The notes: generated by a model not told the origin, from the letters alone. Positions 1 to 17,811 are shown, numbered from the stretch's first letter. The stretch is 61,356 nt of DNA from Thermodesulfobacteriales bacterium (GCA_026986115.1 JALSPG010000018.1:1-61356); one strand, 5' to 3'. Translations and numbers: made by a program.

Positions 1-3000
1 AGTAATGCCATATAAAAGACGGAATAACGGTATTTATTACCTCGGCGGTATCTTCTTTCTGTCTCAAAAAGCTCAAAACCGTAGAAAAGATATGTTTGCG
101 AATTAGGGGTTCATTCTGCATGGAAAAAGCGGGTACCAGAATTCTCCCCGATATCATTTGCTCTGGATGTCGGTAAAAGTACTTGTCATGGGAGCGGTTT
201 CGGCAGTAAGTGAAAACTACTCCTATACGATGCCTCCGGCCTGCACGACCACTTCGCTGGACGTAGCTTGCCGGAGAAGGGGGAACATTTCGCATCAGGA
301 CCATTTCCAGCTGACCGATATCCACGCCTAATTCAAGGGTGGGAGTGGCGACCAGGCAGTTAACGGTGCTTTCCTTTTCCTTGAACTCTCTTTCGTATTT
401 CAGGCGATCGTCCTGAGGAACCTGGGCCGAATGTTCTCTGGGAATCAGGGGGACAAAGTCGAGTTTGGTATACTGAACCACATCGTAATGTTCTTCATCC
501 CAGTGCTGATAAATAAGACGAGCTTTGCAACGATAGGCCGGACAGACGCCTCCGGGCGTAGGCCGTGAACGGGACAGCCGACAGCTCTGGCAAACATATC
601 GCCCTTCACTATGCGTAATTCCTATTTTTTTGTAATTGATTTGGTATCCTGAACCGCCTCTAACGGAGACAATTCTTCCAGCACGTTTCCTTTTTATTTC
701 CGCCGGAACCAGAAGGTCTTTTTCTATAAGCCATTCCCAGAGTTCTTCGAGAAAGCGGTCTCTCACGTCTGATTTCAGCGCTGGAAAGACCTTTCTCAAA
801 AAGACCTGAGCCGCGGAACGACCATTTTGGGCCAGCCATCCCTTTTGATATTTGCTCTCGCCCTCTTTTTGAAAGACAAGAACATGCGGACAATAATATT
901 CCGTAATGTTTACTATCCCCTTTCGCACCTCGGCATCCTGTGAAGACCAGTCCCGCTGAAGGAAAGGATCGCTTAAAACACCCTGTATGCGGTAAATATC
1001 GAGAAGAGCGTGGATGAGATTGGAGAGATCTTCGGCGCTTATCTCAAACTTTTCCAGCCAGTGGATAAGATCCGTTAGATTTTCCGGTTCTATACCGTCA
1101 TAAAGAACCGCCGCGAGTCCCAGCTGCTCCAAGCTTCCGCGCATCTGACGCCGAGTCAAAGAGGCCAGTTCTTCCACGATGAACCAGCGGAGCCTTTTGT
1201 GTTCCTCTTCCTGCCCCCAGCGCACCCGGGGAAGTAGTCCCTCCTCCGCGGCTTTTTCAATCAGTTTTTCATGTAGCGAATCAATAGAAAAAATTCTTTC
1301 CGGCTCACTTCTTAGAATTTGATAGACAAGATGCCTTAAACGGTGTCTTCGAGACCGGTTTTCCATCCAGCCGGCCTGAAACGCGGCCTCCTGTCTGGAG
1401 TCTGCAAAGACGATGAGTTTTCTTAAGCTGGGCTCCGGCATGGCTGAAAGCATGGTCTGGGCAAGGATCATGACATCGGAAACCTCGGCCGATTTTACCG
1501 GAGTGATAACCGGACTCCGCTCCGGGTTGGCCGCCCCACAGGAAACACAGTGGTGTAAAGGTGCAGAGAAGAAAATAATCGGTATTAACTTAGTCTCTCG
1601 GCGACACTTTTCGTTAAGACAGATCGAGAGATCCCGATCATGGATGGCTCCGCAGTAGGGACAAAGATAGCCCGACTCCCCGGGAACCTCTTCCTCCACT
1701 CCAGGGACGATAGTGTCAGTAAAATAAAGGCTTTCGGCATCTTCTGAATTCTCAGAGAGAATTCTTACACCATATATTTCTCCTTCGTGATCTACAGCAA
1801 AGGGAGAAGAATATGTTTCTCTGACATAGTGTTGACCGCAGGAGCGGCAAATTCGAAGTTCAAAAAGAACACGATCCGTCCTTATCGTCTGGTCGAAAAA
1901 GATATTTGGGACTCCATCTTCCTGCCAAGCGATGTAAACACCTTGAAGTCCCTGCACGAAATAATGGAGCTTGGGTCTTAGCAGAGGCTCATCATCGAGG
2001 CGTGCAAGAGCTCCTAAAGTCAGGTAGCTCAGGATTTCGGCCTCAAGGGCGGCGTCCGGAAGCCTCTTCCTTTCGGGAAAGGCCTTCTTAAATTCATTTA
2101 CAATTTCTTTGAGCTGGCGTGGAGTTTCGGTAATCGTCTCAAGGAAAGAAACGATTTCGCTTTGAGAAAGAAGTTTGTAAAGAACGGCTAGGGTGTCTTC
2201 CCCCTCCGGGGCCTTTAGACTCACCAGTTTTTCCGCGAGTTTTATGGTCTCCCGGGAGACCTCGGTCACCTCATCCTGCAGCTGCACCTCACGCACGCTT
2301 TTGAGGATCTCCTCAAAAAGTCTCTGCGGATCTTCGGGTGGCGGGGGTCTGAATGAGCCTTTTTCTTTTCTCTCTTGATAGCTTTCCTGAACAAGATAGA
2401 GCTTGCCCTCCGGTACACCAAAAATATTGGCGGCAAAACGTTTTAATTCCGCTTCCCATTCCCCATTCCCGACTCCCCACTCTCTATTCCCCATTCCCGA
2501 CTCCCCACTCCCCATTCCCGACTCACTTTTCAAGGTGGCAGAGGTTCCTATGCAGATAACTTCATCCCTTGTTTTACCGGCTATGCCTCGCACCCGACGT
2601 ATGAGACAGGCAATTTCCGATCCTCGTGAGCCCGTGTGGGTGTGGATTTCGTCTAAGACGATAAATTTTAGAGGGGCCTCCAGGAAAAGTTCAATATCTT
2701 TGTGACGCAGGAGGAGATATTCAAGCATACTGTAGTTGGTGAGAAGAATCTGAGGTCTTCTCGCAAGAATTTCCTTTCGCGAGAAACATTCTTCCCAGGG
2801 AAGAGGAAGCATATGTCCAGGCTTTTGCGCTTTTAAAAGCTCAACTCTGGTATAAGGCCGGGGTTCGGGAAGTCTTGGAAGGTTTTCTTCGGTTTCTGGT
2901 GTTTCTCCGGTATAGCGTCCGAAGGTGATGCGCGTTCCGGCAAGAAGTTTCCTCAGGCGTTCAAGCTGGTCGTTTACCAGGGCGTTCATAGGGTAAATCA

Positions 3001-3436
3001 GGATAGCAATAGGTCCCCTACTCTCCCCCCGATCTCGTGCTTTAAGACATTCATCGATGATGGGAAGGAGAAAACCTTCGGTTTTACCGGAACCTGTTCC
3101 GGTAGCGATAATGACATGATTTCCGGCCTTTACGGCTCGTAAGGCTTCCTCCTGGTGTTTGTAAAGCCTTTCGAAATTGAAAATTCCGGCCAGAGCCGGA
3201 TGCAGATCAAGAGAGGGGTCCTCAATTAGTTCTCTTAGCGTAGGGCCTTCCACAAACGGACGGCTTAAGTATATATATGGTCCCTTAGCCAGCCGCTCCT
3301 TTCCACCGAGCCCAAAGGAAAGCCCTTCCTTGAATTGTTGACGAAGCCTGGGATCAGCCACCGGAAAGGTGGTAAGCAAATAACGCCCAAACTGATCTAT
3401 AACATCCTTACCAAACTGGACCGGATTCAGGGGCAT
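1..3436 (-). CDS. Large DEAD/DEAH-box SF2 helicase (YprA/DruE-like, DISARM-related), 3' end outside window
   Basis: Absent from the ORF track because no stop occurs in the window. ATG at 3436 with AGGAG RBS. Manual translation: MPLNPVQFGKDVIDQFGRYLLTTF..., Q motif LYKHQEEA, Walker A TGTGSGKTE, YPMNALVNDQ, LLTNYSMLEYLL, DEIH, GTSAT, and near the left edge ATPTLELGVDIG and YVQRSGRAGRR. The frame is still open at positions 2-60. Confidence 0.9.
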   Translation of the reverse strand, partial: MPLNPVQFGKDVIDQFGRYLLTTFPVADPRLRQQFKEGLSFGLGGKERLAKGPYIYLSRPFVEGPTLRELIEDPSLDLHPALAGIFNFERLYKHQEEALRAVKAGNHVIIATGTGSGKTEGFLLPIIDECLKARDRGESRGPIAILIYPMNALVNDQLERLRKLLAGTRITFGRYTGETPETEENLPRLPEPRPYTRVELLKAQKPGHMLPLPWEECFSRKEILARRPQILLTNYSMLEYLLLRHKDIELFLEAPLKFIVLDEIHTHTGSRGSEIACLIRRVRGIAGKTRDEVICIGTSATLKSESGMGSGESGMGNREWGVGNGEWEAELKRFAANIFGVPEGKLYLVQESYQERKEKGSFRPPPPEDPQRLFEEILKSVREVQLQDEVTEVSRETIKLAEKLVSLKAPEGEDTLAVLYKLLSQSEIVSFLETITETPRQLKEIVNEFKKAFPERKRLPDAALEAEILSYLTLGALARLDDEPLLRPKLHYFVQGLQGVYIAWQEDGVPNIFFDQTIRTDRVLFELRICRSCGQHYVRETYSSPFAVDHEGEIYGVRILSENSEDAESLYFTDTIVPGVEEEVPGESGYLCPYCGAIHDRDLSICLNEKCRRETKLIPIIFFSAPLHHCVSCGAANPERSPVITPVKSAEVSDVMILAQTMLSAMPEPSLRKLIVFADSRQEAAFQAGWMENRSRRHRLRHLVYQILRSEPERIFSIDSLHEKLIEKAAEEGLLPRVRWGQEEEHKRLRWFIVEELASLTRRQMRGSLEQLGLAAVLYDGIEPENLTDLIHWLEKFEISAEDLSNLIHALLDIYRIQGVLSDPFLQRDWSSQDAEVRKGIVNITEYYCPHVLVFQKEGESKYQKGWLAQNGRSAAQVFLRKVFPALKSDVRDRFLEELWEWLIEKDLLVPAEIKRKRAGRIVSVRGGSGYQINYKKIGITHSEGRYVCQSCRLSRSRPTPGGVCPAYRCKARLIYQHWDEEHYDVVQYTKLDFVPLIPREHSAQVPQDDRLKYEREFKEKESTVNCLVATPTLELGVDIGQLEMVLMRNVPPSPASYVQRSGRAGRRHRIGVVFTYCRNRSHDKYFYRHPEQMISGRILVPAFSMQNEPLIRKHIFSTVLSFLRQKEDTAEVINTVIPSFIWHY
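2454..2523 (+). repeat. 7-bp degenerate tandem array (9-10 units) inside the helicase CDS
   Basis: From 2461: ccccatt cccgact ccccact ctctatt ccccatt cccgact ccccact ccccatt cccgact (63 bp), plus tcccatt at 2454. Translates as ESGMGSGESGMGNREWGVGNGEW just after the SAT motif. Confidence 0.95.
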
Positions 3437-3445
3437 TGGTTACTC

Positions 3446-3871
3446 CTAACTTAACAACGGAAAACCAATAATTTTAGCCGCCTGATTAAGTTTTTTATCA
3501 AAACAACCAAAGATTACCTTTTCGCTTGCCTTTTTTAATAAGAGATCTGCTGCTGCCAAGTGAACACTATCATAGGCCTTCAGAGCAAAAGCTTTTGCAA
3601 AATCACTGGCTCGCTCTAAAAGACTTTGGTTAAGGCCAATTTTCATATAGTGAGGCCAATCTTTTTCAAAATCTGCCTGGATGTTTTCTAACATTTCTTC
3701 GGAAATTACACCTTCACGACACAGCCTGGCAAAGGCCGCATGAGCCTCTACATAAGCAATTAAATGCGTAGCTACAATTTTGGCTTTAGAAACCGCGTGC
3801 TCAACTGTAGAGCTGTTTTCCTCTTCTACATAAAGCTTTACCAAAGCAGAAGTATCTAAATAGAGAATCAC
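3446..3871 (-). CDS. vapC: VapC/PIN-domain toxin
   Basis: ILYLDTSALVKLYVEE ... LKAYDSVHLAAA ... FGCFDKKL PIN motifs. GTG start at 3871 overlaps the antitoxin stop. Confidence 0.9.
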   Translation of the reverse strand: MILYLDTSALVKLYVEEENSSTVEHAVSKAKIVATHLIAYVEAHAAFARLCREGVISEEMLENIQADFEKDWPHYMKIGLNQSLLERASDFAKAFALKAYDSVHLAAADLLLKKASEKVIFGCFDKKLNQAAKIIGFPLLS

Positions 3872-4128
3872 CGCCGATCCTCCAGGACACATTCGGCGAC
3901 ACTCTTACCGGATATTTTTGGTCTGACACGTCCACCTTTGGGCTTACCACCATCCCAGATAACCAATCCATTCGCCATCAGGGCCTCAATACCATTTTTT
4001 TGTTCTCCAGCGGGACAAAGTCTGGCTATCAGCCGGCGGTGGCGCGTGACTTCAATGATTTTCCCCTGTTTGACCTCTCTTAAGTAACGAGAAAGATTGC
4101 TTTTAAGTTCTCTTACCGAAACCTGCAT
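3868..4128 (-). CDS. Phd/YefM-family antitoxin
   Basis: MQVSVRELKSNLSRYLREVKQGKIIEVTRH Phd signature; lies upstream of the PIN toxin. Confidence 0.9.
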   Translation of the reverse strand: MQVSVRELKSNLSRYLREVKQGKIIEVTRHRRLIARLCPAGEQKNGIEALMANGLVIWDGGKPKGGRVRPKISGKSVAECVLEDRR

Positions 4129-4187
4129 AATACATCTCCTAATGTGATTGTGGTCTCATTTTAACACATGAGGCTACATTTGACATA

Positions 4188-4322
4188 TTATACACGACTC
4201 ATCCGAAAGGGGTTTACGATCTTAACGCCTTCGATTTTCTTCAAATCTTCCGTAAAAAGCACTCGACAGCCAGCTTCCAAGGCAGAACTCACGATCAGGG
4301 CGTCCCAGAAGGAACACCACAA
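4188..4322 (-). pseudogene. C-terminal fragment of a PIN toxin (5' part deleted)
   Basis: Manual translation SFWDALIVSSALEAGCRVLFTEDLKKIEGVKIVNPFRMSRV*, a typical PIN C-terminus. The N-terminal DTN motif is missing and the fragment is fused directly to the end of the antitoxin. Confidence 0.8.
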
Positions 4323-4537
4323 AGTTCTTCCCTGCGCCATTTGGTCAACGTCCCGGAATGTTCTTGCATGATGGTGAGGATCTCTTCGGTTACTTCTTCT
4401 AATTCGTTTTTTTCTTGGGTAAGGGCTTCAAGTTGTTCCCTGATAAGGGCGCTTAAACTCTTCCCTCTTTTGGCCGCCAGCTCCCGGGCCTTGCGCCACA
4501 CATGCTCGGGAAGAGCTATAGTTACGTTTTTGTACAT
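4295..4537 (-). CDS. Ribbon-helix-helix (CopG-like) antitoxin
   Basis: MYKNVTIALPEHVWRKARELAAKRGKSLSALIREQLE; ends ...KWRREEL, typical of VapB-like partners. Confidence 0.8.
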   Translation of the reverse strand: MYKNVTIALPEHVWRKARELAAKRGKSLSALIREQLEALTQEKNELEEVTEEILTIMQEHSGTLTKWRREELCGVPSGTP

Positions 4538-4661
4538 GACTCATCCTTTACAAAAGCTGTTTCTTTCACAGTTTCACAGACCAAAGGAGCTTTGTAAAGT
4601 CCAAGGAAAATTTCGCCTGTTACCCTTCCTTTCTCTCTTTCAGCGTCAAACGATAAATAGA

Positions 4662-7046
4662 TCACTCTTTCAGAACCAATTTATATCCTTCAAAATTTCT
4701 AGGTTTACTATACTCAAATCTTTCAAAAATTTGTATAAGTACTCGTTTTTGGAGATATTCTCGCTGTTTTTGTTCATCTCCTATTTTCTTTAGCCATTCA
4801 GGTGATTTTTTGATGAAATACTCCATCAACTTTTTATTTTCCGAAAAAGCTTGAATATTTATATAAAATATATCTCTAACCAAACTTTCATTTTCTCCTT
4901 CATTTAAAGGAGAAAGTTGAATTATACGTCCAATTTTATTTCTATTCAAAATCAAAATTTGTTTTTCTATATTCTGATGATAGATTTTAAAAATAGGAAT
5001 AAATTTGCCGTTGAATTCATACCAACCTTCAAAACTTTTTATATCAAGCTGTTTAACATTTCTGTACCATTTAGGTTTAAAATTCTTGCAATTTTTAAAA
5101 AACAACCAAAATGCAATATTTGCAGCAAAAATAACAATATCATCTGTATTTTTAAATTTAGATAAAGTATTTTCAAATTCTTCTTTGGAAATTTCTTCAC
5201 AACTTTTGGCAATTGCATCAAAAAGATATGAATTTTCGCTGAAGGCTAAACTGCGGCCATAATTTTTACCCCATTCTGCATAATGAATGTGCCACTCATC
5301 AAAGAAAGCGGCTTTATCATCAACAATATTAATTTCAAAACGTTGTTTTTGGTTTACCTTTTCTTCTCTTGTTCTATCTTCATATAGTTTTAAATAGTTA
5401 ATAAAAATATCTCGCAACGATGCAGATTCATAAAAACTTTTCAAAAAATCTTCCTTAAATTCTTCAATCTTTTTAAGACTTATATTTTGTGACTTATTTT
5501 TTACCGAGATTTGTTTGCTTGCTTCTTCTTTTAGTTTTTTCAGGAAAGGAATTAGTTTGCCATCAAAAAGTTCGTCAATATGTTTAATATCAAAACCAAG
5601 CTCAGCAAGAAGAGATTTTTGCGTCTTTAAATCGGTAGCAAGTTGAATAAATTCATCCACAGAATACTCTAAATTACTTAATACAAAAATATGTAAATCT
5701 GGTAACTTATAATTTTCTATCTGGGGAAAACTACCTTCAGAATCAGCGCGCACATTCTGCAATACCCTAGCTAACAATAATAAAAAGTATTGTTTATAAT
5801 ACTTTTCGCTTCCGTGATGACCTTCCCAAAAATCAAATTTTCGTTTGAAAATCCCTCTCTTAAAGTATAAACGAATAACTTCATCTAATGTTGTTGGTAC
5901 AATATCATGTCCTATCCATAGAGCATCAGCATCTGGAGGTTGTTTGTATTCCCAAAGATATTTTATATATGAAGCTCTTTGTTTAAATAAACAATAAGCC
6001 CCAATCGTAAAGATAATTTCAAGAAGATTGTTATATTTGAATTGCGATAAAATAAATTCTTTTATCTCTTTTTCTAATTTTTTAGCCTCTTTTCTTTGAT
6101 ATAGTTTCAGATTTGGTTCAATAATTGCTTTAAGTTCATTAAATTTCTTAAACCATATATCTAATTTATCTTTTGTAGCCACATCAGTTTCTGAACTGAC
6201 TAATTCCTTTATTTTCTTTTCAATATCATATTTTTCATCAAGTTTTTTGTATATTTCAAAACCACTATGTAAAATTAAATGCCCATATTCCCAAACCTTC
6301 CCTTGGTTGTAGAACGGGATATTTATTCCATCTACTAAATAAGAAACAAGAGCATGAAAAAGAGATTTTTGATCTTCAGAGACAATATATTTAACCATTG
6401 AAAAGAAATATTCATTGAAGAGGTCAATATATGTTAAATCAAAATCTCCCTCTTTTCTTCCTAAGTGATTAAAAACAACATCTATATACCAATGTATTGA
6501 TGCAGCATACATCGATTTATCATTTCTTTCGATGGCTATTCTAGAAATTTCAGATAGCTTTCTAAGAATTTGTTCGACAAATAGGTCATTATTCGGCCTT
6601 TTAGTAAGTCTCGCTAATATCCAATTGATATGATAAACAGCAAATCTACTAATTTCTTCATTTTGTGAATCTACAGCAGCTTCATACACGCGAGTAACTT
6701 GATTTATTGCTGTTGAAAAACTAATTAAATATTTTTCGGGATCAAAAGCCAAAAGAAATTTAGCGTCTTTCTCGTCTTTCTTGTAAAATTCAAGAATTTC
6801 CTGGCTAAAAACTAACTGTTCAAATTTTTCAGGATCATTTTCTTTAATATCAAAAATCTTTTTTATAATATCGGTTATTTTCTGCAACCATTCTAAAACT
6901 AATTTATTTTTTTGTCTTCTTGTTTCAAATACTAAAATGTCGCCTATTCCCTCTAGCGATTCAATAAGTACACTTTGTTTGTCTGATAATTTTTTATTTT
7001 TAGTCCAGACTCTTTTTAACATCTTGATATAACTGATTAAGTACAA
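4662..7046 (-). CDS. Large AT-rich hypothetical protein (about 790 aa)
   Basis: Long ORF in a visibly AT-rich block with no recognisable catalytic motif. The ATG near 7022 is the more likely start, or the ORF continues the upstream ORF through a frameshift. Confidence 0.8.
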   Translation of the reverse strand: MYLISYIKMLKRVWTKNKKLSDKQSVLIESLEGIGDILVFETRRQKNKLVLEWLQKITDIIKKIFDIKENDPEKFEQLVFSQEILEFYKKDEKDAKFLLAFDPEKYLISFSTAINQVTRVYEAAVDSQNEEISRFAVYHINWILARLTKRPNNDLFVEQILRKLSEISRIAIERNDKSMYAASIHWYIDVVFNHLGRKEGDFDLTYIDLFNEYFFSMVKYIVSEDQKSLFHALVSYLVDGINIPFYNQGKVWEYGHLILHSGFEIYKKLDEKYDIEKKIKELVSSETDVATKDKLDIWFKKFNELKAIIEPNLKLYQRKEAKKLEKEIKEFILSQFKYNNLLEIIFTIGAYCLFKQRASYIKYLWEYKQPPDADALWIGHDIVPTTLDEVIRLYFKRGIFKRKFDFWEGHHGSEKYYKQYFLLLLARVLQNVRADSEGSFPQIENYKLPDLHIFVLSNLEYSVDEFIQLATDLKTQKSLLAELGFDIKHIDELFDGKLIPFLKKLKEEASKQISVKNKSQNISLKKIEEFKEDFLKSFYESASLRDIFINYLKLYEDRTREEKVNQKQRFEINIVDDKAAFFDEWHIHYAEWGKNYGRSLAFSENSYLFDAIAKSCEEISKEEFENTLSKFKNTDDIVIFAANIAFWLFFKNCKNFKPKWYRNVKQLDIKSFEGWYEFNGKFIPIFKIYHQNIEKQILILNRNKIGRIIQLSPLNEGENESLVRDIFYINIQAFSENKKLMEYFIKKSPEWLKKIGDEQKQREYLQKRVLIQIFERFEYSKPRNFEGYKLVLKE

Positions 7047-7548
7047 AATTTGTATCGCTTACGAATTTTATTATATAATTTACTACTTGCCAAACAATAA
7101 AAGCAATACAAATAAAAATCAATAACATAAATAATGCTATAACTTTCCACACAGAAGTATTTATATAGTCTTCCTTCATAAAAAATTTCAACACTATTAG
7201 CGCAACAATATTAAACAGAAGAAGTGGAGGTAAAATTTTATATCTCCATTGCCTTTGGAATACGTAAATAAGTACATCAGAATTATAACGTTCAGAAATT
7301 CTTGAAATAATTTCTATGCTTAATGGTATTAATAGAGCAACTATTACTGTCTCAAAGGCAATAATATCTGATAAGAATGCTGGATCTGGATTTATGTTAA
7401 TAATTTTTAAAAATGAATCATAAAGCTTATGTTTTTTAGGGCTTTCCAAAAAAGATTTGTGTACCTTTAATAATCCACATAAATATCCTGAAATAAAAAC
7501 AACAAAATAAGATAAAACAACTTTAAACTTAAAAAATCTTTCCATCAT
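7000..7548 (-). CDS. AT-rich membrane protein (about 4 TM helices)
   Basis: Hydrophobic segments; IIAFETVIVALLIPLSIEIISRISERYNSDVL resembles DUF2254-type N-terminal membrane regions. Overlaps the next ORF. Confidence 0.7.
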   Translation of the reverse strand: MMERFFKFKVVLSYFVVFISGYLCGLLKVHKSFLESPKKHKLYDSFLKIININPDPAFLSDIIAFETVIVALLIPLSIEIISRISERYNSDVLIYVFQRQWRYKILPPLLLFNIVALIVLKFFMKEDYINTSVWKVIALFMLLIFICIAFIVWQVVNYIIKFVSDTNFVLNQLYQDVKKSLD

Positions 7549-9786
7549 AGCATTCTAATCATAAAGTTCAAATTTTCCTCTATTTTCTTTCACTACTTTC
7601 ATATTAGTAAGTTCTATCAATGCTTTTTTGCATATAGCTAAAGATAGATTTAGCTCATTTGCTATTTCCTCCACACTCAAAGCACGGTTTGATTCAATCA
7701 AAAGGTCGAAAATTTTTTCTTTGATACGCTCCAGGTCTTCGGAAGAAATGTACTCGCTCTTGGGTTCGGCGGCTTTGGGGAGGGAGTATTCCGGGGAAAG
7801 TTTTTCCTGGAGTTCTTCGTAAGTAACGGTTAATTTTTCTCGCTTTCTTTCTTGGGCCTCTTTGAGGGAGATCACCTTGGTGATTGGCTTTTCGTCCAGG
7901 GGTTTGGGGTGAGGGATCTGGCCGTCGAAGCGGTCGTATTGTTCGAGGCAGAGGCGTTTGGTGCGGTACTCGCCGAAACGTTCTTCGTCCTTTCGGCGGA
8001 CGATGGGAAAGGTGTCCAGGATGTAGGCGAATTCGTCACGGGTTAGACCGTAAAGATGGGCGAAAATGGCGTCAAGCTCGGCGCGGATTTGGGCCCGACG
8101 CTCTTCGTCCCATTTGAAGGGTGGGAGAGGGCATACATTTTTATTGGGATTGTTAGGTTTTAAAGAATAAATGATTTCCAACCAGTCTGGTGGAGTTGCG
8201 TTTTTGTGTCCTCCGGTTTCATGGGCGTTTTCCTCCCATTGCTCGCGTATGGCAGAGCGAAGAGTTTCATCAGCTTCAGCCCAGATGTCGTCGGCAAAGG
8301 GCTTCATGTCCCAAGCAGTGTAAGTGAGCTCCAGTATGCGGGGAATGGCAAAAAGTAAGTGGTTAATGCTGTAAAAATCAGGCGGAAAAATTGGAAGTTG
8401 TTTTACTACAAAAAAATCTAAATGAATTCCGCTAATTTTTTGTCGGGCTGAGTAATTTACTACTAAAGAGTTAAAATTATTACATAGTAGAGCTATTAAA
8501 ATTGATGTTTGTTTAGAAATAATGATTGGAATTGTATCAGTAGTAGCAACAAATGGCAAAAAACAAAACCAACATGAGTATAAATCTATAGCTCTAGTTA
8601 TTCTTCTAAATCCCAAAAACCACAACCTAGGCCATTCAGTAATATTTTTATCAATATTATCTAAATGCACCCAATACCAAGGTGTTATTACAAAATTCGG
8701 ATTGTGTAATTCTTTAGTAGAAATGGAAGGTAAAGGTCTACTAAACGGTCTTTCAGATAAATCTTTATAATCTCCATGTCTATGGTCAAATTGAGTAATC
8801 ATCTTAGCTTCATATAGAGGTAAGTAAACATCTTCTTCTGCCTTGACAAAAATGTTGCCTTTGAGCTTGTAGCCTTCAGCCTCAAGCTCCTCTCGTGTGC
8901 GGAAGAGGTGAGAATCGCTGGACATGTTAAACAGACCTTGTTTAAACCGAATATCCCACGGATTACCGTCTTTCCTGGTCTCGTCCACGAGCACCGGGCA
9001 GTGGCGGTAAATCTTGAGGGTGAGATCGGCGTCGCTCCTGCGGCGGAAGATGGGGCAGGTGCGAGTGTTGGGGTTCAAGAGCCGGAAGTCCTCGGGGGAG
9101 AGGCTGAAGCGGCGGTCTTCCTCACGAAGCTCCTCGGGCCTCGTCAGGAAAAAGGCAAGCTCCGCCCTCTCGCCACCTTTTCCAGAAAGTCCAAAGAGGC
9201 AAAATTTGTAACTGCGATGAATGTTGAACAAGCCCTCCCTATTCTCAAAGTCATAAAGAAAGGCCAGTTCGCCAGATTCGCTTATACTCTGGAAGAATTC
9301 CTTGGTGGTGTTGTCGGTGGCGATGCCGGAGGGGATGATCAGGCCCACGCGCCCGTCCCGCCGGCCCATAAGGGTTCGTGCTCGCTCGGCGAAGACAGCG
9401 TAGTAATTTATATGACCTTGGGCTGTTAACGGGTATTGGCTTGAATAACGTAAAAAACTGCTAAAACATTTTGTGTCGTAAAGGGTCTTTTGGTACTCCT
9501 CATAAAGGAGCGGATCTTCTTCACGTAAAGCTTCAATAAGCTTGGCTCGTTGGGCAGCGGTGCGCGCGGAAACTATGTCTTCACGCCTTCCAGCGAAAAA
9601 CTGTTTATCTTCTACTTGAATCTTTTCCCACGGAGGGTTGCCGAGTATGGCGTGAAAGCCGGAGTCTTCGGTAAGGAAGACCTCGGGGAACTCAAGCTCC
9701 CAGTGGAAGAAACGATGTTTTTGAGCCACCTTCCGGACGGTGAAAAATATTTCCCAGAATCTTTCTTCGGAAATGAATTGCGGGGG

Positions 9787-9828
9787 CTTGGGGAGTAGGG
9801 ATTGGGCAGTGGGGAGTGGGGAGTCGAG
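9787..9828 (-). repeat. 7-bp array (6 units) in the MTase CDS, opposite orientation to the other arrays
   Basis: cttgggg agtaggg attgggc agtgggg agtgggg agtcgag (42 bp); encodes LDSPLPTAQSLLPK. Confidence 0.9.
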
Positions 9829-10248
9829 GAAATTTTCCATAAGGGTTTTGAGGTAAGCGCGGTATTCGAGGGTTGTCGGTTTACGGACATCTCTGGGCCA
9901 GAACCAGAGGGTGCACCAGGCGTCGCCTATGGCCTTGAGAAGCTGATACTCCGGACTTTCCGCAAGATGTCTTAAACGAGACTCCTTGTCCCGGTAATCA
10001 TCGGGGGTGGCGGTGGCCCGTCGATCTATTTCCCCTCGAAGTTCAATGAGTTTTCCAAGAAACTTGCGAAAGTCCAGAGTTCCGAAAAGACCGAGCTGGC
10101 CCGGAGCCACCTCGAGCAAGGCCTCAAGTGTGGCCCGGTTTTCTCTTTTGAGATCGGCTTCGTCCTTCCGGAAGACCTCCTCGGGAACGAACTCCAGCCG
10201 ATGAAGCTTCAGCACCCCTTTTCGCCCCAGCCGTACCTCCACCTCACC

Positions 10249-10283
10249 CCCTACTCCCGACTCCCTATTTCCCACTCCCCTTC
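10249..10283 (+). repeat. 7-bp array (4-5 units) in the MTase CDS
   Basis: ccctact cccgact ccctatt tcccact ccccttc; encodes GRGVGNRESGVG. Confidence 0.85.
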
Positions 10284-10810
10284 CAAAGAACCAGGCGCCG
10301 ATGAGGCTATTGCCACACCGCAGGTGCGCATTGAGAAAGGTGAAGGGCTTCCCGCGGGCGAGGCTTTCTATCCAGAGGGAAAGCTTGGCCAGCTCCACGG
10401 CCTCCGGGTTCACATCCACGCCGTAAAGGCAACGCTCACCACCAGGCGCCTGGCCTGGATGAGCATTTCGTCTCTCTCCTGAGCCAGAGGTTCCTCCTCG
10501 GCAAGACCTTTGGCCGGCGTGGCAAAGGGAAGCACTAAAGTAGCCTCGGGGAACTCCTCGCGTCGCCTCTCCCAGGCGGAGACCAGAGCCTCGGCCAGCT
10601 CATCCGCGGCGGCCACAAGAAAGGCCCCGGAGCCCATGGCCGGATCAAGGATCTTCAGGCTCAGGATGTCCTCCGGGGTCTTTCTTTCGGCAAGAAGGGG
10701 GCCGAGGGTACGCCTTACGACCTCCGTGGTCAGGACCTTTGGGGTGTAATAGGTGCCGGTGCGTTTGCGAAGCCCGGAGGGGACAAGACACCATTTGTTC
10801 TCTCCTTCTT

Positions 10811-10845
10811 CCCCACTCCCGACTCCCGACTCACTACTCCCGATT
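10811..10845 (+). repeat. 7-bp array (5 units) in the MTase CDS
   Basis: ccccact cccgact cccgact cactact cccgatt; encodes IGSSESGVGSGE. Confidence 0.9.
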
Positions 10846-12183
10846 TTTACGCTATAACCCAGAAGGCCCTCGTACATGTGGCCGATGTGCTCGATCTGAA
10901 GGGTGCGGTAACTTACACGCTGGGCTATCTTTTGCCGGCCTACCCTGGCCTCAGTGTTGGTCAGGGCCTTGAGGATTTCGTAGACCACTTCGTTTGAGAG
11001 CCTAAGGCGCGCTCCGTCAAGAAGGGGAAAGCGTTCGGGATTGAAAAGATCGCCGCCATAAGGCCGAAGGTTCAAATCGGGATGAGGACAACCACGGTAA
11101 ATCAGAAGAAAGAGGGCCTGAAGCCGAGGCCAGGCGTCGTAGCCCTCGCGAAAGGCCTCAGGGTGTTCTCTTTTTTCCTCTTCCAGGCGAAAAAGGAGCC
11201 TGCCGAGACTGTAAGATTCTTCATAAAGAGGCATTCCGTGGGGGAGAAGCTCGCGCTCTTCGGCAAAGAGAATGAAGACCAGGCGCATCATGAGGGCAAG
11301 ACCTGCGGCATGAAGTTCCTGCGGGGAAACTGGGCCGTCTATCTCCGCGCGCTCCACAAATATTTGAAGGGCCCGGAGGGCCTGTTCTCCCAAAGTCTCG
11401 GTAAGTTCGGCCTGGCGCTTCTCGCTCTCACGGCAAAGCTCAACTAGAAGAAGTTTTCTTTCGCCGATAAAACGCTCGAGCCTGAGGAAGGTGTAGAAGG
11501 CGTCGAGAACCAGCTTGTCTCCCCGCAGGGCCTCCGCCGAAAAGGTAATCCAGGAGGAGGGAAGCCCCAGGGGGGCATAGAGTAGACGGAAGTGAAGGCC
11601 GTTGGTGACCAGGCCCAGAGGGCAATCAAGGCCGCGCAGAAGCCTTTCAAGCTTTACCGTGGGGGAGGCCCTCCAGGTGTGCCGGCGCCTCTCGTTCCGG
11701 TCAAGGGGATGGGCAAAATCGGTTTTGTATACCATAAAGACGGGGGATCCGTTGGAAATAAGGGCTCCGTAGGGCTTTAAGGTTTCCCGATGCTCTTCAA
11801 GGTAAAGGGTGCAGGACTCGGGGACCTTCCTTCCGGTAACCCAGTAAGGGGCACGGTAGCCCAGAAGATCGCCGAAAATAAAATGGAGCCAGTGGCGCAG
11901 GATCGGGACGGCCTTTTCGGGAGTATCTTCCACGCTTCTTATACGCTCCCATTCCCGGAGGTAACGCCGAAAAAGCCCCTCGGGGACTTTTTCCGGACCT
12001 TGGGGGAAGTGGAGGTTGAGAACGGGCTCGCTTAAAAGCAGGCCGTGGAGATCCACCTGCGAAAGCCAGAGCCGATGATCCTTCGCTTCCTCCACTGATT
12101 TTTTCTTCTTACCTCCGCGCCCCATTTGAGGCTGTCCTGTAAAGTGATAATTGTGATCGTTTTTGGATCTGCAAGACAGACTC

Positions 12184-12210
12184 AAAAGGGGTGGACAGTC
12201 CCCTTGTTTT
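12184..12210. repeat. Imperfect palindrome (GGGG..GGACAGTCCCC type) at a cassette junction
   Basis: AAAAGGGGTGGACAGTCCCCTTGTTTT lies where the hsdS remnant breaks off. Confidence 0.5.
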
Positions 12211-12278
12211 GAATATCACCATCTCCCCCAACCGCACCCGGAGCCAGCCTTTGGGAAGTTGTAGTGCCCTTCAAACAT
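12205..12278 (-). pseudogene. hsdS: 5' remnant of a type I R-M specificity subunit (hsdS)
   Basis: ATG at 12278. Reads MFEGHY(K)/LPKGWLRVRLGEMV with a 1-nt slip, matching the HsdS N-terminal LPxGWxxVRLGE motif. Confidence 0.65.
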
Positions 12279-12291
12279 CTTTTCACCTGTG

Positions 12292-12642
12292 CTATAATTT
12301 CTTTTGTCTAACTTTTGTTCGCTCTACTACGGTAAACATACCCTTAAAACGAATATCTTGGATTTCTAAAATCTTAAGTAAGACTTCTGCGCATTCTTCA
12401 GGATACTTAGGAGTAAAGCGGAAATACACTATTCCAACAGAAGCTAATTCTTTCTCTTCAAAAATCAACTTTCCATAATCTCTATCAAAAGTAAGGATTA
12501 TTCTATTTTCATCCTTAGCTATTCTTAAAACTTCTTCATCTGAAATCCCTGGGCATTCTTCTATTATAGCTTTTACATCGTACCCGCTTTTCCTTAATAT
12601 CTTTATAGACTTTAACGGGATATTCTCATTAGCTAAAAACAT
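12292..12642 (-). CDS. DUF5615-family PIN-like toxin
   Basis: FLANENIP ... GISDEEVLRIAKDENRIILTFDRDYG. Confidence 0.88.
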   Translation of the reverse strand: MFLANENIPLKSIKILRKSGYDVKAIIEECPGISDEEVLRIAKDENRIILTFDRDYGKLIFEEKELASVGIVYFRFTPKYPEECAEVLLKILEIQDIRFKGMFTVVERTKVRQKKL

Positions 12643-12644
12643 CT

Positions 12645-12884
12645 CTAAGCTGCCTCTTTATTTAAATCATAAATCAACTCTTCACGCATACATTCTGCCA
12701 CAAAAGCAAATACAGCTTTTAAACTTTCCATAGTAAGTATAGGATAATTTTCTAAAATTTCTTCTATGCTCCATCCTTCAGCAAGTAAGTTTAAAATAAA
12801 CTCTACAGACAACCTTGTTCCTTTTATAATAGGTTTCCCCGCTAAAATTTTTGGATCTGAGGTAATATACTCTTGCCATTTCAT
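12645..12884 (-). CDS. DUF433-family antitoxin
   Basis: ITSDPKILAGKPIIKGTRLSVEFILNLLAEGWSIEEILENYP. Confidence 0.92.
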   Translation of the reverse strand: MKWQEYITSDPKILAGKPIIKGTRLSVEFILNLLAEGWSIEEILENYPILTMESLKAVFAFVAECMREELIYDLNKEAA

Positions 12885-12902
12885 ATTTTTCCCCTGTTTA
12901 TT

Positions 12903-13030
12903 TCAATTATTTATTAGTTCGTTTATTTCTTCGACTATACCCAATATAGCCTTTTCTTTCTCTAGAAGGCTTGCGGCTATTTCGGCCGTAGGAGAAAAAA
13001 ACTCCTCGTGCTTAGTGAAAATGGGCTCAT
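12903..13030 (-). pseudogene. Possible 3' remnant of type I R-M methylase (hsdM)
   Basis: Startless frame ...EEFFSPTAEIAASLLEKEKAILGIVEEINELINN* resembles the HsdM C-terminal helix. Its position before the hsdS remnant fits hsdM-hsdS order. Confidence 0.45.
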
Positions 13031-13203
13031 ATATCGCTTTTAAGTTCTTCCTTAAATTCTTTTCTAAATACTTCTTCTGCAATCATTTTAAACTCTGGAA
13101 ATTCTTTAACAAATAGCTTTAACAGCTCCCTTGCGCAATAAACACATCTTCCGTCTGCCTCTTTTAAAATATTTAAGATTTTTATAGCTTCTTCTTTAGT
13201 CAT
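13027..13203 (-). CDS. Small hypothetical protein (58 aa) with CxxC
   Basis: MTKEEAIKILNILKEADGRCVYCARELLKLFVKEFPEFKMIAEEVFRKEFKEELKSDI*; below the ORF-track cut-off, same strand as its neighbours. Confidence 0.6.
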   Translation of the reverse strand: MTKEEAIKILNILKEADGRCVYCARELLKLFVKEFPEFKMIAEEVFRKEFKEELKSDI

Positions 13204-13248
13204 TTTTCTTCCGAAACTATTTATCTCTTATCAATTTCCAAAATTTTA

Positions 13249-13476
13249 TTACGCCGCGTTGAGGTGGACCTTCCCTTTAGAGCGAAACAACGGAGAGAAA
13301 GATATTTCAGAAAAATCCGTCTGTTCTGAAGCGTGCTCCAAGGTTAAAGCCACAATTTTTCCATCTTTATCGACCTCAACATATAGATTTTCAGAAACTT
13401 CGATAGTTTCAGTTGCTTCTCGATTAGAAAACTCAATTAGTATTGTATCTGTGTCTTCAAAATATTTAACTTTCAT
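13249..13476 (-). CDS. DUF2283-family antitoxin
   Basis: MKVKYFEDTDTILIEF ... LYVEVDKDGKIVALTLEHAS. Confidence 0.9.
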   Translation of the reverse strand: MKVKYFEDTDTILIEFSNREATETIEVSENLYVEVDKDGKIVALTLEHASEQTDFSEISFSPLFRSKGKVHLNAA

Positions 13477-13732
13477 GATTGCCTCCTCTTAAAACTTCTA
13501 TCAAAGAAAACGTTATGTACAGTCTCGCCGTCTTCAAGCAAGATAACTCTCAAAAACTTCTTGGCTTCAGCAATATATTTCCACCTTCTAATCCGGCCGT
13601 CTTTTTGAACCTCTTCAAAATCAGGATTTTTAATTGTTTCAAATATCCATTCTTTTTTAATCTGTTTTCGATCGGGTCTGCTAGTATAAATATACTCAAA
13701 ATAAAATAAGCTGTGCTTTTAAAATCTCTCAT
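13473..13732 (-). pseudogene. RelE-like toxin partner of DUF2283, frameshifted by a 5-bp duplication
   Basis: Removing one TATTT copy (about 13698-13708) restores MRDFKSTAYFEYIYTSRPDRKQIKKEWIFETIKNPDFEEVQKDGRIRRWKYIAEAKKFLRVILLEDGETVHNVFFDRSF. ATGA overlaps with the genes on both sides. Confidence 0.8.
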
Positions 13733-16700
13733 TTTTCCTGAGCTGTTTCGACCAAGGATTCCGGCAAAACAAAACACACACCCACCGGAAATATTTTTAC
13801 CGTTTTAAGTTCGTAGCGCGTTCTGATTCTTTCGGGTTCTCTTTCCAGATCCTCCTCCAGGGTCTTTCGCCGCGCCTCAAGATACTTTATATCCTCGCGC
13901 AGGGTCTCATCTATACGCCGAAGCTCTTCAAGAGAGAAAAGAAGCCTTTGCGGACTTTCTTTTTCTTTACGAAGTTTTTTAAGGGTGGCTTCTATTTCCT
14001 TTATGCGGTCGCAAATGACGTTTCTTATTTCTCGGGTTTCAACGGTTGTCTTTTCCTTAAGAAGCTTCCGAAGCTTGCGGAATTTTTCCTTCTCCAGGGC
14101 CTTAATCTTTTCCTCAATTAAATCGTGGCTTTTACGGAAAGAGGAGCGGATTTTTTGGGCCAATTCCCTAAGGATGGGGCGATGCTCTCCGGTAAGGAGA
14201 AATCCGAAATCTCTATCCTCAGTCAAATACACCAAAGGTTCACCGGGATTAAAAGAAAAACGAAGAGAAAAAAGTTCCTCATGAAGTTTTAGCCCCTGCA
14301 CACTTGAGGCCAGGAGTTTCAGAAAGATTACCGCCTGGGCCTGCTCCCTACTCCCCATTGCCCATTCCCCACTCCCGCAGACCACAAAGGAGGCGCGGTG
14401 AAGTTTCTCCCCGGTAAAGCCCAGAGAATAAAAGGCTTTTTTGAAGACTGAAAAGGCCTTCTGCATGAGGGGATGATTCAGGTGAAGGAGCACCACATCC
14501 CGGCGGTCCCGGGCAAGCTCTGGTTTGAAGACCAGGGTAAGAAGCCGCCCTTCGGCATCCTTGATGGTTGAAAGTAGATCTTTTCCCCAGGAAGGTGGAA
14601 TACTTTCCAGAAGATACCCTTCTTCAAAGCCTTCCCGTTTTTTAAGACCGGGATGCCCCGAAAGTTTAAGGGCCTGGTTAAGCACTAGGCACAAGGTCTC
14701 GGGATAAATTTTCTTCTCGTGGCGAATGGTTTCTATTTTCGCCTTGATTTTTCGGATACGTTCCAGGTCGAAAAGTCTTTCTCGAATTTCGTCTTCTAGC
14801 TTTCTCTGGGGGGCGAGGCGCTCTATTTCTTGAGTGCTCACCTTTCGGCCAAGCATTCTTTCGTGGAGTTTTTCCTCAAGCACTGCAGCTACAGAACCCA
14901 GATCCTCCCGCATCTTTTCCACTTTGTGCACGATGGTGTTCAGAAATTCTGAATCTTTGTGATCCTGATAGACGAAGTGAAAAATCTTTACTTCTTCGGC
15001 CCTCTGGCCGTGACGGTCAATGCGGCCGTTTCGTTGCTCAAGACGGTTGGGGTTCCAGGGAATTTCGTAATGCAGGAGATGGTGACAGTGATTCTGAAGA
15101 TTTATGCCCTCAGCGGCGGCATCGGTGGCCACCAGGATACGCACCGGATGTTCGGAGGGCGGAGCCTGAAAGGCCTCTTTGATCTTTTCGCGCTCGGAAA
15201 GACTCATCCCTCCGTAAAGCGAAAGGACCTTCTCCTCTCCATAGCGGGCGGAAAGCTTTTCGTAAAGGTAATCAAGAGTGTCCTTGTATTCGGTGAAGAC
15301 GATAAGTCGCTTTTGGGCGATCAGGTCATCGGCGAGAGAAAATAGAGTTTTCAACTTGGTGTCGGGAAGTTCGAGGGAAGACACTAAATCCCACATGCGG
15401 GAAAGCAATTCCCCTTCTTCGGAAGAGATTTCTCCAAGAAGAAGGCTCCCTTCTTTTAAGGCTTCCAGCTCTAAGGCCTGTTTTTCAAGATCGTCGGCCG
15501 TGTCTTCGGCAAGCCTTTCGGCAAGCCGTTCAAAAACCACAGCCCTGGAAGAAGTTTCTTCGGTCATTGAGATTGTAGGCCTGGTTACATGTTCCAGATG
15601 GACTTCAAGGGAATTTCGAAAGGCCGCATAACTTGAAAGCAGGCGCTTTTTGAGAATGGTTAGGGCAAAACGCAGGGCGTTTCTTTGAACTTTGTCTTTG
15701 GGGGCTCTGAGTCTCTTCTCAATATAAGCTTCAAGGCAGTCAAAGAGTTCCCTTTCCTTGGGAGAAAGGGTCACCTCCCGGGCCTTGATGGTCCTTTTCG
15801 GGAAGGTTCGGTTGGAGACCTCGGGAGTGAGGTCTCTTTTAAGGCGCCGCACCATTACAAGTTTTGCCTGACGGGGGTCCACTTTGGGGCCGCGTGTGAA
15901 ACGCAGGGGATCAAGTAGCTCCAGAAGGGCAGTGAAGGACTCGGTATAGCCGTTGTGAGGAGTGGCGGTGAGGAAAAGGCGGTGTTCAAAATGAGGCGTT
16001 ATCTGGCGAAGGAGCTTCGTGCGATCGGAATCCTGAACATAGTCCTTGCGGCCTGAAGGGGCACAATTATGGGCCTCGTCCACGATAAGAAGATCCCACT
16101 TTGAGATACCAGGCTTTCCACCGTTTTTGTTTTCGGTGGTGCTCAGGAACTGCTGGAGATAAGGCTCTCGTTTTAAAAAGTCCATGGAGGTGATAAGCCG
16201 CGGGAAGGACTCCCAGGGGTTCACATGAAGCCCGTATTCCCTCTTAAGCCTTAGAATTTCGTCACGGTCTATGATCCTAAAGACCAGATTGAATTTAGTA
16301 AGCATTTCCTCTTGCCACTGCCTCTGAAGCGAGGCCGGGCAAAGAATCAGGATCTTACGCACACGGCCGCGAGCAAGAAGTTCCTGGAGGATGAGGCCGG
16401 CCTCTACCGTCTTCCCGAGCCCCACATCATCGGCAAGAAGGAGAGAGACCCGGGGCATGGCAAGCGCCCTTGCCACCGGCTCAAGCTGATAGGGTTCGAT
16501 CTCTATAGCACCACGGAAGGGCGCGGTAAACGAGTCATTGGCGAATACCGAGGCCTCAGTCCACTTGAGAGAAAGAAGAAGCGAGGCCAGTCTTTCCGGA
16601 GGGTCCCAGGCCGAAAGGTCGGGAAAACTTATCACGTCTTCGACCCGGGGAGAAATTTCAAGCTCCCAAATAACATCAAGAGATGTGCCTAAGCGGTGGT

Positions 16701-17676: not shown

Positions 17677-17734
17677 AAGAGGGAGAAGGAACGTTCAGGA
17701 GAAGAACTTATTATTCCGAATGTTAAGAATTTGA

Positions 17735-17811
<77 letters not shown>

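What the first reader, a model, noticed from the sequence alone, without database searches (positions are those of the whole stretch)
2454..14380. Five 7-bp tandem arrays embedded in the reading frames of all three core defence genes
Seen: arrays of CCCCACT/CCCGACT/CCCCATT/CCCTACT units at 2454-2523 (helicase), 9787-9828 (inverted), 10249-10283 and 10811-10845 (MTase), and 14339-14380 (SNF2). None breaks a frame. The two best-delimited arrays are 9 and 6 units (63 and 42 bp, multiples of 3). They give Gly/Ser/Glu/Trp or Pro/Ser/Leu inserts next to conserved motifs. I saw no comparable array in the 43 kb of housekeeping DNA. Known: the units resemble cyanobacterial STRR heptamers, which are mostly intergenic. 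Inference: gain or loss of one 7-mer shifts the frame, so these could be multi-site phase-variation switches. Alternatively they are dispersed homology for domain swapping or inversion (the 9.8 and 10.25 kb arrays are inverted to each other), or footprints of a repeat-depositing mobile element that targets defence genes. This is the best candidate for an undescribed system.
Basis: partly seen in the sequence, partly recalled or inferred. Interest (0 to 1): 0.85.

Follow-up and report, generated by a model that had tools for sequence, protein, structure and literature searches.

The report
Heptamer repeats hitchhiking in defence genes
Five short runs of a G-rich 7-base repeat sit in frame in variable loops of three predicted anti-phage genes on a tRNA-integrated island of a vent bacterium; relatives nearly always keep the frame, so the runs are likely tolerated passengers that travelled with the island rather than on/off switches, although one relative's helicase is broken by loss of a single unit.

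Summary
The five arrays are real (16 matches, 0 in 100 shuffles) and stop-free. They lie in a SNF2 (DrmD) / methyltransferase / YprA-helicase cassette (ARMADA type I-like) on an island bounded by a 54-bp tRNA-Met duplication in a Thermodesulfobacteriales genome. Each array fills or replaces a naturally variable loop. Of 9 distinct length changes seen in relatives, 8 are multiples of 3. The exception, -7 bp in the longest array, truncates the helicase of G031, whose methyltransferase has also lost its core. Four of five gene-breaking lesions, including a -1 frameshift in the window's own methyltransferase, lie outside arrays. Units are degenerate, and contigs of two runs holding this DNA show no length variant or inversion. 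The unit belongs to a known G-rich heptamer class (Rehm 2015) found in 37 of 400 Desulfobacterota genomes, mostly beside ordinary genes. In four Thermodesulfobacteriales genomes and one distant genome the arrays are largely confined to these cassettes, best explained by import from repeat-rich donors. Verdict: passenger repeats under frame-preserving selection; low-rate switching at one array is not excluded. The scan reported similar in-frame heptamers before on other DNA.

The parts
2450..2526 (-). Array A, 11 heptamer units in the YprA-like helicase, in the loop just after motif III (GTSAT); reads ESGMGSGESGMGNREWGVGNGEWE. Relatives: -42, -30 (in frame), -7 (frameshift, G031)
9791..9825 (+). 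Array B, 5 units, G-rich strand opposite the coding strand, in a methyltransferase inter-helix loop (DSPLPTAQSLLP); shared with G007, non-periodic in L165
10245..10279 (-). Array C, 5 units (GRGVGNRESGVGG); 36-bp insert absent from G007 and L165; heads a 200-300 bp block that diverges from G007
10807..10841 (-). Array D, 5 units (IGSSESGVGSGE); 33-bp insert shared with G031, absent from G007, L164, L165
14342..14376 (-). Array E, 5 units in DrmD (CGSGEWAMGSREQ); replaces a non-repeat loop (M-P/S-D-L-Y-L-R-E-P) at a predicted beta-hairpin turn
8341..8368 (-). Decayed relic of a length-neutral heptamer patch (HLLFAIP) at the end of the methyltransferase variable region; a recognisable 4-unit array in the G013 and second G031 methyltransferases
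2..3436 (-). YprA-like DEAD helicase, cut by the contig end; its C-terminus is on contig C111; full-length orthologues (1731 aa) carry a fused MrfA Zn-binding (DUF1998) domain
7555..12125 (-). Eco57I/PglX-like adenine methyltransferase (DrmMI-like), split by a 1-bp deletion at about 10437, outside any array
13729..16824 (-). SNF2/RapA-like helicase DrmD (NF038317, 970 bits, cut-off 610), intact
17734..17811 (-). tRNA-Met; 54 bp of its 3' part (17734-17787) recur exactly on C111:553-606 just past the helicase end, the likely island boundaries

Best explanation
The arrays are short, degenerate G-rich heptamer repeats that sit in frame in variable loops of an ARMADA type I-like defence cassette and are likely passengers, kept in frame by selection on the proteins and likely brought in with the island from repeat-rich donors. 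Steps: (1) shown: each array fills, lengthens or replaces a loop that is already length-variable in homologs. (2) shown: among relatives the length changes are nearly all multiples of 3 and mostly not multiples of 7. (3) inferred: slippage and small indels act on the arrays, and out-of-frame products are purged while the cassette is useful. (4) inferred: the arrays arose in lineages where this repeat class is active and moved with the cassette by horizontal transfer and allele-block recombination into hosts that otherwise almost lack it, which gives the apparent targeting. (5) inferred: once the cassette decays, the longest array is a mutational weak point and a single-unit loss can end the helicase, as in G031. 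How the repeats are first written into a gene is not established.
For: Loops: site A loop is 17-35 residues in 103 of 107 motif-bearing helicase homologs (mode 21-22), 23 in G005, 37 here. Site E is a predicted beta-hairpin turn (pLDDT <50 at 819-822); B and C are predicted coil (low-confidence model, mean 56). Frame: site A alleles -42 (G005, L165, X3, X6, X8), -30 (G007, G009, X4), -7 (G031); B +9; C -36; D -33; E -15, +6, +15; 8 of 9 distinct classes are 3n and only 2 are 7n (nominal p about 0.001, kin not independent). Degeneracy: longest run of identical units is 2 in A, 1 in the others. Stability: runs X1 and X2 cover arrays B-E in single unbroken contigs, and X2 also array A, with no indel or joint listed there. 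Lesions: 4 of 5 lie outside arrays. Class is general: 37 of 400 other Desulfobacterota genomes match; the 30 sampled loci lie mostly beside ordinary genes, some inside ORFs of tsaD and RNase R. Mobility: att-like tRNA-Met duplication; DrmD 92-94% identical across two families; mosaic identity blocks around C, D and E. Generator candidates not found in the host: no PF05635, PF22296, PF13366 or RT match in G000 (96.8% complete), while 32 of 37 array-positive phylum genomes carry PF05635 against 181 of 363 others.
Against: The confinement is extreme and recurs: G013 13 of 13 three-unit matches in one methyltransferase, G031 20 of 21 in two cassettes, G005 1 of 1, distant G427 3 of 3; single methyltransferase homologs carry up to 11 repeat-derived peptides. 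No repeat-rich donor genome with an array-laden cassette was identified; the two such cassettes examined in array-rich genomes were free of heptamer arrays (G205, G246). One of four frameshifts is a clean -7 in an array although arrays are 2% of coding DNA (chance about 0.08). Replacement of native sequence at site E and the length-neutral HLLFAIP patch are not explained by slippage alone. Contigs drop rare variants, so low-frequency switching was not testable. Alleles known only as proteins are biased to in-frame.
Confidence: 0.62

Rival explanations
1. Contingency switch: array A (and less so the others) is kept as a slippage site that turns the helicase-nuclease off, for example as a fuse after the methyltransferase is lost, and can revert.
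For: G031 carries a one-unit deletion giving a stop three codons later; the 328-aa product is a public record; its methyltransferase lacks about 810 residues including the catalytic region. Array A has a 25-bp exact internal repeat and expanded by 6 units in the window/G031 lineage. The methyltransferase is broken in 3 of 4 cassettes where it is fully visible (window, G007, G031; L165 intact), and the helicase in 2 of those 3.
Against: 8 of 9 site-A alleles are in frame; the common alleles have only 3-5 units; G007 lost its helicase by a homopolymer slip elsewhere; no variant in contigs X1/X2; B-E have no identical-unit runs; the window keeps an open helicase frame over the 1145 visible codons despite its broken methyltransferase.
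Confidence: 0.17
2. Targeted writing: a repeat-depositing process (possibly linked to four-helix-bundle/Avd-like genes) patches or overwrites breaks preferentially in these DNA-modifying defence genes.
For: Native loop replaced at site E; conserved coding motif converted to repeat without length change; 9 of 120 methyltransferase homologs carry 35 repeat peptides at recurring sites, often as inverted pairs (shuffles 2.3 proteins); confinement in G013, G031, G427; PF05635 association 86% vs 50% and a PF05635 gene flanked by inverted arrays in G205.
Against: Only 2 of 80 DrmD loci and 0 of 14 viral loci have arrays; of 27 cassette-bearing genomes 11 have arrays but only 1 in the cassette locus; array-rich G205 and G246 cassettes are clean; the same loops also take octamer-like and GC-hairpin inserts, pointing to permissive sites rather than specific targeting; the PF05635 link is uncorrected for kinship and genome size.
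Confidence: 0.13
3. Dispersed homology for inversion or domain swapping within or between the genes.
For: B and C are inverted; A and B share 17 exact bases; array C heads a divergent block and the HLLFAIP relic sits at the 3' edge of the variable region.
Against: B-C share only 10 exact bases; an inversion would destroy the gene; no inversion joint and unbroken contigs in X1/X2; B, C and D do not flank the variable region (about 8830-8330) that differs between the window and L165; no recombinase among the island ORFs listed and scanned.
Confidence: 0.05
4. G-quadruplex regulation of the cassette's transcription or translation.
For: 4 of 5 arrays meet a four-G3-tract pattern with loops up to 7 and all 5 with loops up to 12; the related GGGAATC and GGGGA(C/T)T repeats form G4 in vitro (PMC4692102 abstract).
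Against: The genome has 49 such motifs; the arrays in the G013 and second G031 cassettes are mostly GCGA-type units without G3 tracts; close relatives lack arrays at C, D and E.
Confidence: 0.03

Closest known systems
G-rich heptamer repeats GGGAATC (Xanthomonas) and GGGGA(C/T)T (Nostoc), Rehm et al. 2015, PMC4692102 (abstract and passages read); STRR of heterocystous cyanobacteria (recalled)
   Same: 7-nt unit with a G3-G4 tract (GGGAATC in another phase is one of the window's units), mostly 4-6 units, both strands, inverted pairs in relatives, a minority intragenic; the authors judged phase variation unlikely.
   Different: There the repeats are spread genome-wide and mostly intergenic; here the genome is almost free of them and most lie in frame in one mobile defence cassette, with more degenerate units.
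Long simple-sequence repeats with 7-nt units (Mrazek et al. 2007, seen only as summarised in PMC4679880) and TAACTGA repeats (MacGregor 2015, PMC4679880, introduction and passages read)
   Same: Sporadic heptamer arrays, proposed polymerase slippage, tolerated in ORFs where they avoid stops.
   Different: Different unit; there intragenic copies lie mostly at protein ends, here in internal loops next to conserved motifs.
ARMADA type I (Bell et al., bioRxiv 10.1101/2025.09.15.676423; passages and one section read)
   Same: BrxHII/RapA-like SNF2, PglX-like methyltransferase and YprA helicase with fused DUF1998, in the SNF2-MTase-YprA order described for a subset of type I; island at a tRNA gene.
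   Different: Small TA-like and unknown genes are interleaved; the methyltransferase is frameshifted; repeat inserts do not figure in the passages read; tree placement not tested.
Phase-variable SSR contingency loci in restriction-modification genes (modA; Campylobacter type IIG; search listings only)
   Same: Non-3n repeat inside a methyltransferase or helicase ORF; one natural OFF allele by unit loss.
   Different: Those tracts are pure and switch at high rate (own knowledge); these are degenerate, short and nearly always in frame.
Rickettsia palindromic elements and similar in-frame selfish inserts (recalled, not tested)
   Same: Small repeats tolerated in surface loops of proteins.
   Different: Tandem heptamers rather than 100-150 bp palindromes; restricted here to a mobile cassette.

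Membership tests
ARMADA type I | BrxHII/RapA-like SNF2 helicase | tested here: met
   NF038317 970 bits over cut-off 610; PADLOC DrmD 998 bits
ARMADA type I | PglX-like adenine methyltransferase | tested here: met
   Eco57I and N6_Mtase, DrmMI 471 bits, NPPW motif in sequence; gene frameshifted in this genome
ARMADA type I | YprA-like helicase with DUF1998 fused in one gene | tested here: met
   PF09369 at 1504-1578 of the 94-96% identical G005 orthologue and in L165; the window copy is cut by the contig end
ARMADA type I | No GajB-like ArmD gene after the helicase (which would make type II) | tested here: met
   att copy about 300 bp after the helicase end on C111; unrelated genes follow in G031
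ARMADA type I | C-terminal Vsr-type nuclease | tested here: inconclusive
   no Pfam hit in the last 150 residues of two orthologues; a PD-(D/E)xK-like stretch is visible by eye only
ARMADA type I | Placement in the ARMADA clade of the YprA tree | not tested
   no reference set held; best PADLOC hits are DruE models, consistent with the paper's statement that ARMADA YprA is closest to Druantia
ARMADA type I | Anti-phage activity | not testable with these tools
   needs experiment
DISARM class 1 | Separate DrmA, DrmB (DUF1998) and DrmC (PLD) genes | tested here: not met
   DUF1998 is fused; DrmA models score 26-27 bits against cut-offs of 950-999; no DrmB or DrmC hit among the 10 island ORFs scanned
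G-rich heptamer repeat class (Rehm 2015 / STRR-like) | Tandem 7-nt unit with a G3-G4 tract, about four or more units | tested here: met
G-rich heptamer repeat class (Rehm 2015 / STRR-like) | Abundant, genome-wide, mostly intergenic | tested here: not met
   8 arrays in 1.83 Mb, 5 inside the cassette genes; array-rich genomes exist elsewhere in the phylum
G-rich heptamer repeat class (Rehm 2015 / STRR-like) | G-quadruplex formation | not testable with these tools
   pattern only
Phase-variable SSR contingency locus | Pure tandem tract | tested here: not met
   longest identical run 1-2 units
Phase-variable SSR contingency locus | ON and OFF unit-number alleles among strains | tested here: inconclusive
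   1 OFF among 9 site-A alleles, in a cassette already broken; none at B-E
Phase-variable SSR contingency locus | Unit-number heterogeneity within a population | tested here: inconclusive
   none in contigs of X1 and X2, but only contigs, not raw reads, were available
Invertible (shufflon-type) locus | Near-perfect inverted repeats, both orientations seen, adjacent recombinase | tested here: not met
   10-bp longest match, one orientation, no recombinase ORF seen

The most novel reading that the evidence does not exclude
ARMADA-type genes are preferred landing sites of an undescribed repeat-writing process, possibly tied to Avd-like four-helix-bundle genes, that overwrites short stretches of coding DNA with heptamers (even converting a conserved motif without changing its length), and the longest array then serves as a fuse that shuts off the helicase-nuclease when the cognate methyltransferase is lost.
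Probability: 0.13. Interest if true: 0.75.

Novelty: new variant of a known kind. Interest (0 to 1): 0.33.

Why it matters
How bacterial heptamer arrays arise is an open question. This cassette gives a compact, well-aligned series with empty, filled, expanded, decayed and frameshifted alleles of the same sites, plus two cases where repeat replaced native coding sequence instead of duplicating it, which argues that slippage is not the whole story. In hosts that otherwise lack the repeat, the arrays act as a provenance mark of defence-gene transfer. As a defence mechanism it is probably not new.

Tried and rejected
No RNA holder was listed, so expression was not examined. Only Logan contigs, no raw reads, could be laid; X11 did not reach array A and no X5 contig bridging it was shown. 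Folding of the five arrays as single strands gave nothing beyond shuffles; a G013 inverted pair gave z -1.9. Four-helix-bundle (PF05635, PF22296), GxxExxY (PF13366) and RT (PF00078) genes were not found in G000; PF05635 was also not found in G002, G005, G013 or G031. Viral contigs: 14 methyltransferase loci, none with arrays. The metagenome scan gave only 2 loci. A weight-matrix scan for weaker relics was not done, so further decayed arrays may be missed. DNA around the array-richest methyltransferase homologs (P0126, P0160) could not be fetched, so their hosts' genome-wide array density is unknown. Literature searches found no paper on heptamer arrays inside ARMADA or DISARM genes or on their link to four-helix-bundle genes; the library lacks most subscription papers, and the ARMADA preprint's supplements were not seen. 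No earlier scan note covers look-alikes of this stretch. Both structure models are of modest confidence (mean pLDDT 69 and 56), so low loop scores are weak evidence.
Full report
Observation. With the unit G[GC]GA[AG][CT][ACG] they are A 2450-2526 (11 units), B 9791-9825 (5, other strand), C 10245-10279, D 10807-10841 and E 14342-14376 (5 each). A four-unit pattern gives 16 matches in the window, all in these arrays, and 0 in 100 shuffles. In the whole 1.83-Mb genome the same detector finds 8 arrays; block shuffles give 1-2 three-unit hits and no four-unit hit. The other three are an 11-unit array over the stop codon of a small ORF on C93 and two short intergenic ones on C56. All five are stop-free, but the methyltransferase is split by a 1-bp deletion at about 10437, outside any array; both runs that hold the exact DNA agree with the window, and G007, X3 and X5 have the extra base.

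Host genes. The genome belongs to the Thermodesulfobacteriales by its relatives (a named Thermodesulfatator contig is the best DrmD hit). The cassette is DrmD (NF038317 above cut-off), four or more small TA-like ORFs, an Eco57I/PglX-like methyltransferase, two low-GC ORFs without family hits, RHH and Phd/PIN genes, and a YprA-like helicase whose full-length orthologues carry a fused DUF1998. This is the three-gene set and order that the ARMADA preprint gives for part of type I (10.1101/2025.09.15.676423, passages and one section); it fails the DISARM test because the helicase is not split and no DrmB or DrmC was found. The helicase ends on contig C111, followed after about 300 bp by an exact 54-bp copy of the 3' part of the tRNA-Met that lies at window 17735-17811. 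The cassette is therefore likely an island of about 20 kb integrated at this tRNA; no integrase was seen in it. DrmD is 92-94% identical in genomes of two families, in keeping with recent transfer.

What the arrays do to the proteins. Site A is the loop after helicase motif III; of 121 homologs 107 had the motif, and in 103 of these the loop measured 17-35 residues (mode 21-22), against 23 in G005 and 37 here. So the short repeat allele has ordinary loop length and the window's is expanded by 14 codons. Site E is a predicted beta-hairpin turn where G005, G007 and distant homologs keep a non-repeat loop that the array has replaced, not merely lengthened. C and D are 36- and 33-bp gains with altered flanks. 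B and C are predicted coil in a low-confidence model. A sixth, decayed patch at about 8341-8368 encodes HLLFAIP; in the G013 and second G031 methyltransferases it is a recognisable four-unit array standing in for the conserved DLxFIVP stretch with no change of length.

Length variation. Site A: -42 in G005, L165, X3, X6, X8; -30 in G007, G009, X4; -7 in G031. B: 0 and +9. C: -36. D: 0 and -33. E: 0, -15, +6, +15. Eight of nine distinct non-zero classes are multiples of 3 and only two are multiples of 7 (nominal p about 0.001; alleles are related, and the +15 class comes from a protein record). The G031 -7 is a one-unit loss that ends the helicase three codons later; the 328-residue product is a public record. 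Its methyltransferase has lost about 810 residues including the catalytic region. Across the window, G007 and G031 there are five gene-breaking lesions, one in an array; the others are -1, -14, +1 in a C run and the large deletion. L165 has all three genes intact with short or decayed arrays. Units are degenerate (longest identical run 2). Runs X1 and X2, which may be the source, cover B-E in single contigs and X2 covers A too, with no indel or joint listed there; contigs hide rare variants. B and C share only 10 exact bases, and the variable region that differs between the window and L165 is not bounded by B, C or D. Identity profiles show arrays C, D and E travelling in short mosaic blocks.

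Distribution. Ten of 41 Thermodesulfobacteriales genomes match. In G013 all 13 three-unit matches lie in one methyltransferase (six arrays), in G031 20 of 21 lie in two such cassettes, in G005 1 of 1; in G002 one of about nine arrays precedes a YprA helicase and the rest lie elsewhere, those annotated mostly between ordinary genes. A distant genome, G427, has all 3 matches in its methyltransferase. Nine of 120 methyltransferase homologs carry 35 repeat-derived peptides at recurring loops (shuffles: 2.3 proteins), against 4 of 120 DrmD (shuffles: 1) and 1 of 121 helicase homologs; the same loops also take octamer-like and GC-hairpin inserts. Against targeting: 37 of 400 other Desulfobacterota genomes match, and the 30 loci returned, one per genome, lie mostly beside ordinary genes, two beside four-helix-bundle genes, two beside TA genes and none beside a gene of this cassette's families, though several neighbours had no Pfam hit. 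Two of 80 DrmD loci and none of 14 viral loci have arrays; 11 of 27 cassette-bearing genomes tested have arrays but only G427 in the cassette locus; cassettes of array-rich G205 and G246 are clean. Four-helix-bundle genes occur in 32 of 37 array-positive and 181 of 363 array-negative genomes (p 2e-5 uncorrected), and flanking arrays are seen in G205 and, with another unit, G007. None was found in G000, G002, G005, G013 or G031.

Mechanism. Most likely the repeats entered these genes in lineages where the repeat is active, survived only in permissive loops and in frame, and were carried with a mobile island into hosts that have few such repeats. Loop position and the frame rule are shown; purging by selection, donor origin and the weak-point role of array A are inferred. 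The missing piece is a repeat-rich donor with an array-laden cassette, which I did not find; this and the replacement alleles keep targeted writing open (0.13). Low-rate switching at array A remains possible (0.17).

Known relatives. The unit belongs with the GGGAATC and GGGGA(C/T)T heptamers of Rehm et al. 2015 (PMC4692102; abstract and passages), which are mostly intergenic and were judged unlikely to be phase-variable, and with the wider heptamer class summarised in PMC4679880 (introduction and passages). STRR and Rickettsia palindromic elements are recalled, not read. Seven searches found no report of such arrays in ARMADA or DISARM genes. Earlier scan notes describe in-frame heptamers on other DNA, one in an Anaerolineae defence operon; these are unchecked notes and are not counted as evidence. 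Verdict: a new variant of a known repeat class in a known type of defence cassette; interest 0.33.

Noticed in passing
window 10437: 1-bp deletion splits the methyltransferase; the gene is broken in 3 of 4 cassettes where it is fully visible (window, G007, G031; L165 intact), suggesting frequent decay of this system.
   Followed up: yes
window 17734-17787 and G000:C111:553-606: Exact 54-bp duplication of the tRNA-Met 3' part bounding an island of about 20 kb with no integrase seen.
   Followed up: partly
window 4662-7548: Two ORFs (794 and 182 aa) in a low-GC stretch (28-34%) between methyltransferase and helicase with no Pfam, NCBIfam or PADLOC hit; DNA like part of the longer one lies in G008 next to a small gene that ends in a heptamer array. 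Candidate accessory defence genes.
   Followed up: no
window 17330-17690: Cluster of REP-like imperfect palindromes and a 22-bp tandem repeat (3.9 copies) between the cassette and the tRNA.
   Followed up: no
G000:C93:8587-9234: 11-unit heptamer array over the stop codon of a 192-aa ORF with a JAB-like motif (by eye), beside a second Phd-type gene and a helicase-like fragment; the same gene and array end occur in G008.
   Followed up: partly
G000:C31:6814-12301: A second SNF2 gene in a BREX-like cluster (by eye) without arrays.
   Followed up: no
L158 (G007:C69) and L245 (G205:C24): Four-helix-bundle genes flanked by heptamer arrays, up to about 20 units of a different unit in G007 and as inverted arms in G205.
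   Followed up: partly
P0191, P0154, P0121, L244: The same methyltransferase family holds octamer-like repeat peptides or GC-hairpin-type inserts at the same loops, so it collects several kinds of small repeat.
   Followed up: partly
runs X4, X6, X8: Contigs of other organisms carry similar arrays directly before the PFKWDE motif of related methyltransferases in 3 of 4 runs laid.
   Followed up: no
window 12292-13476: DUF5615 gene and several other small TA-like ORFs inserted between DrmD and the methyltransferase; this interval differs among relatives.
   Followed up: no
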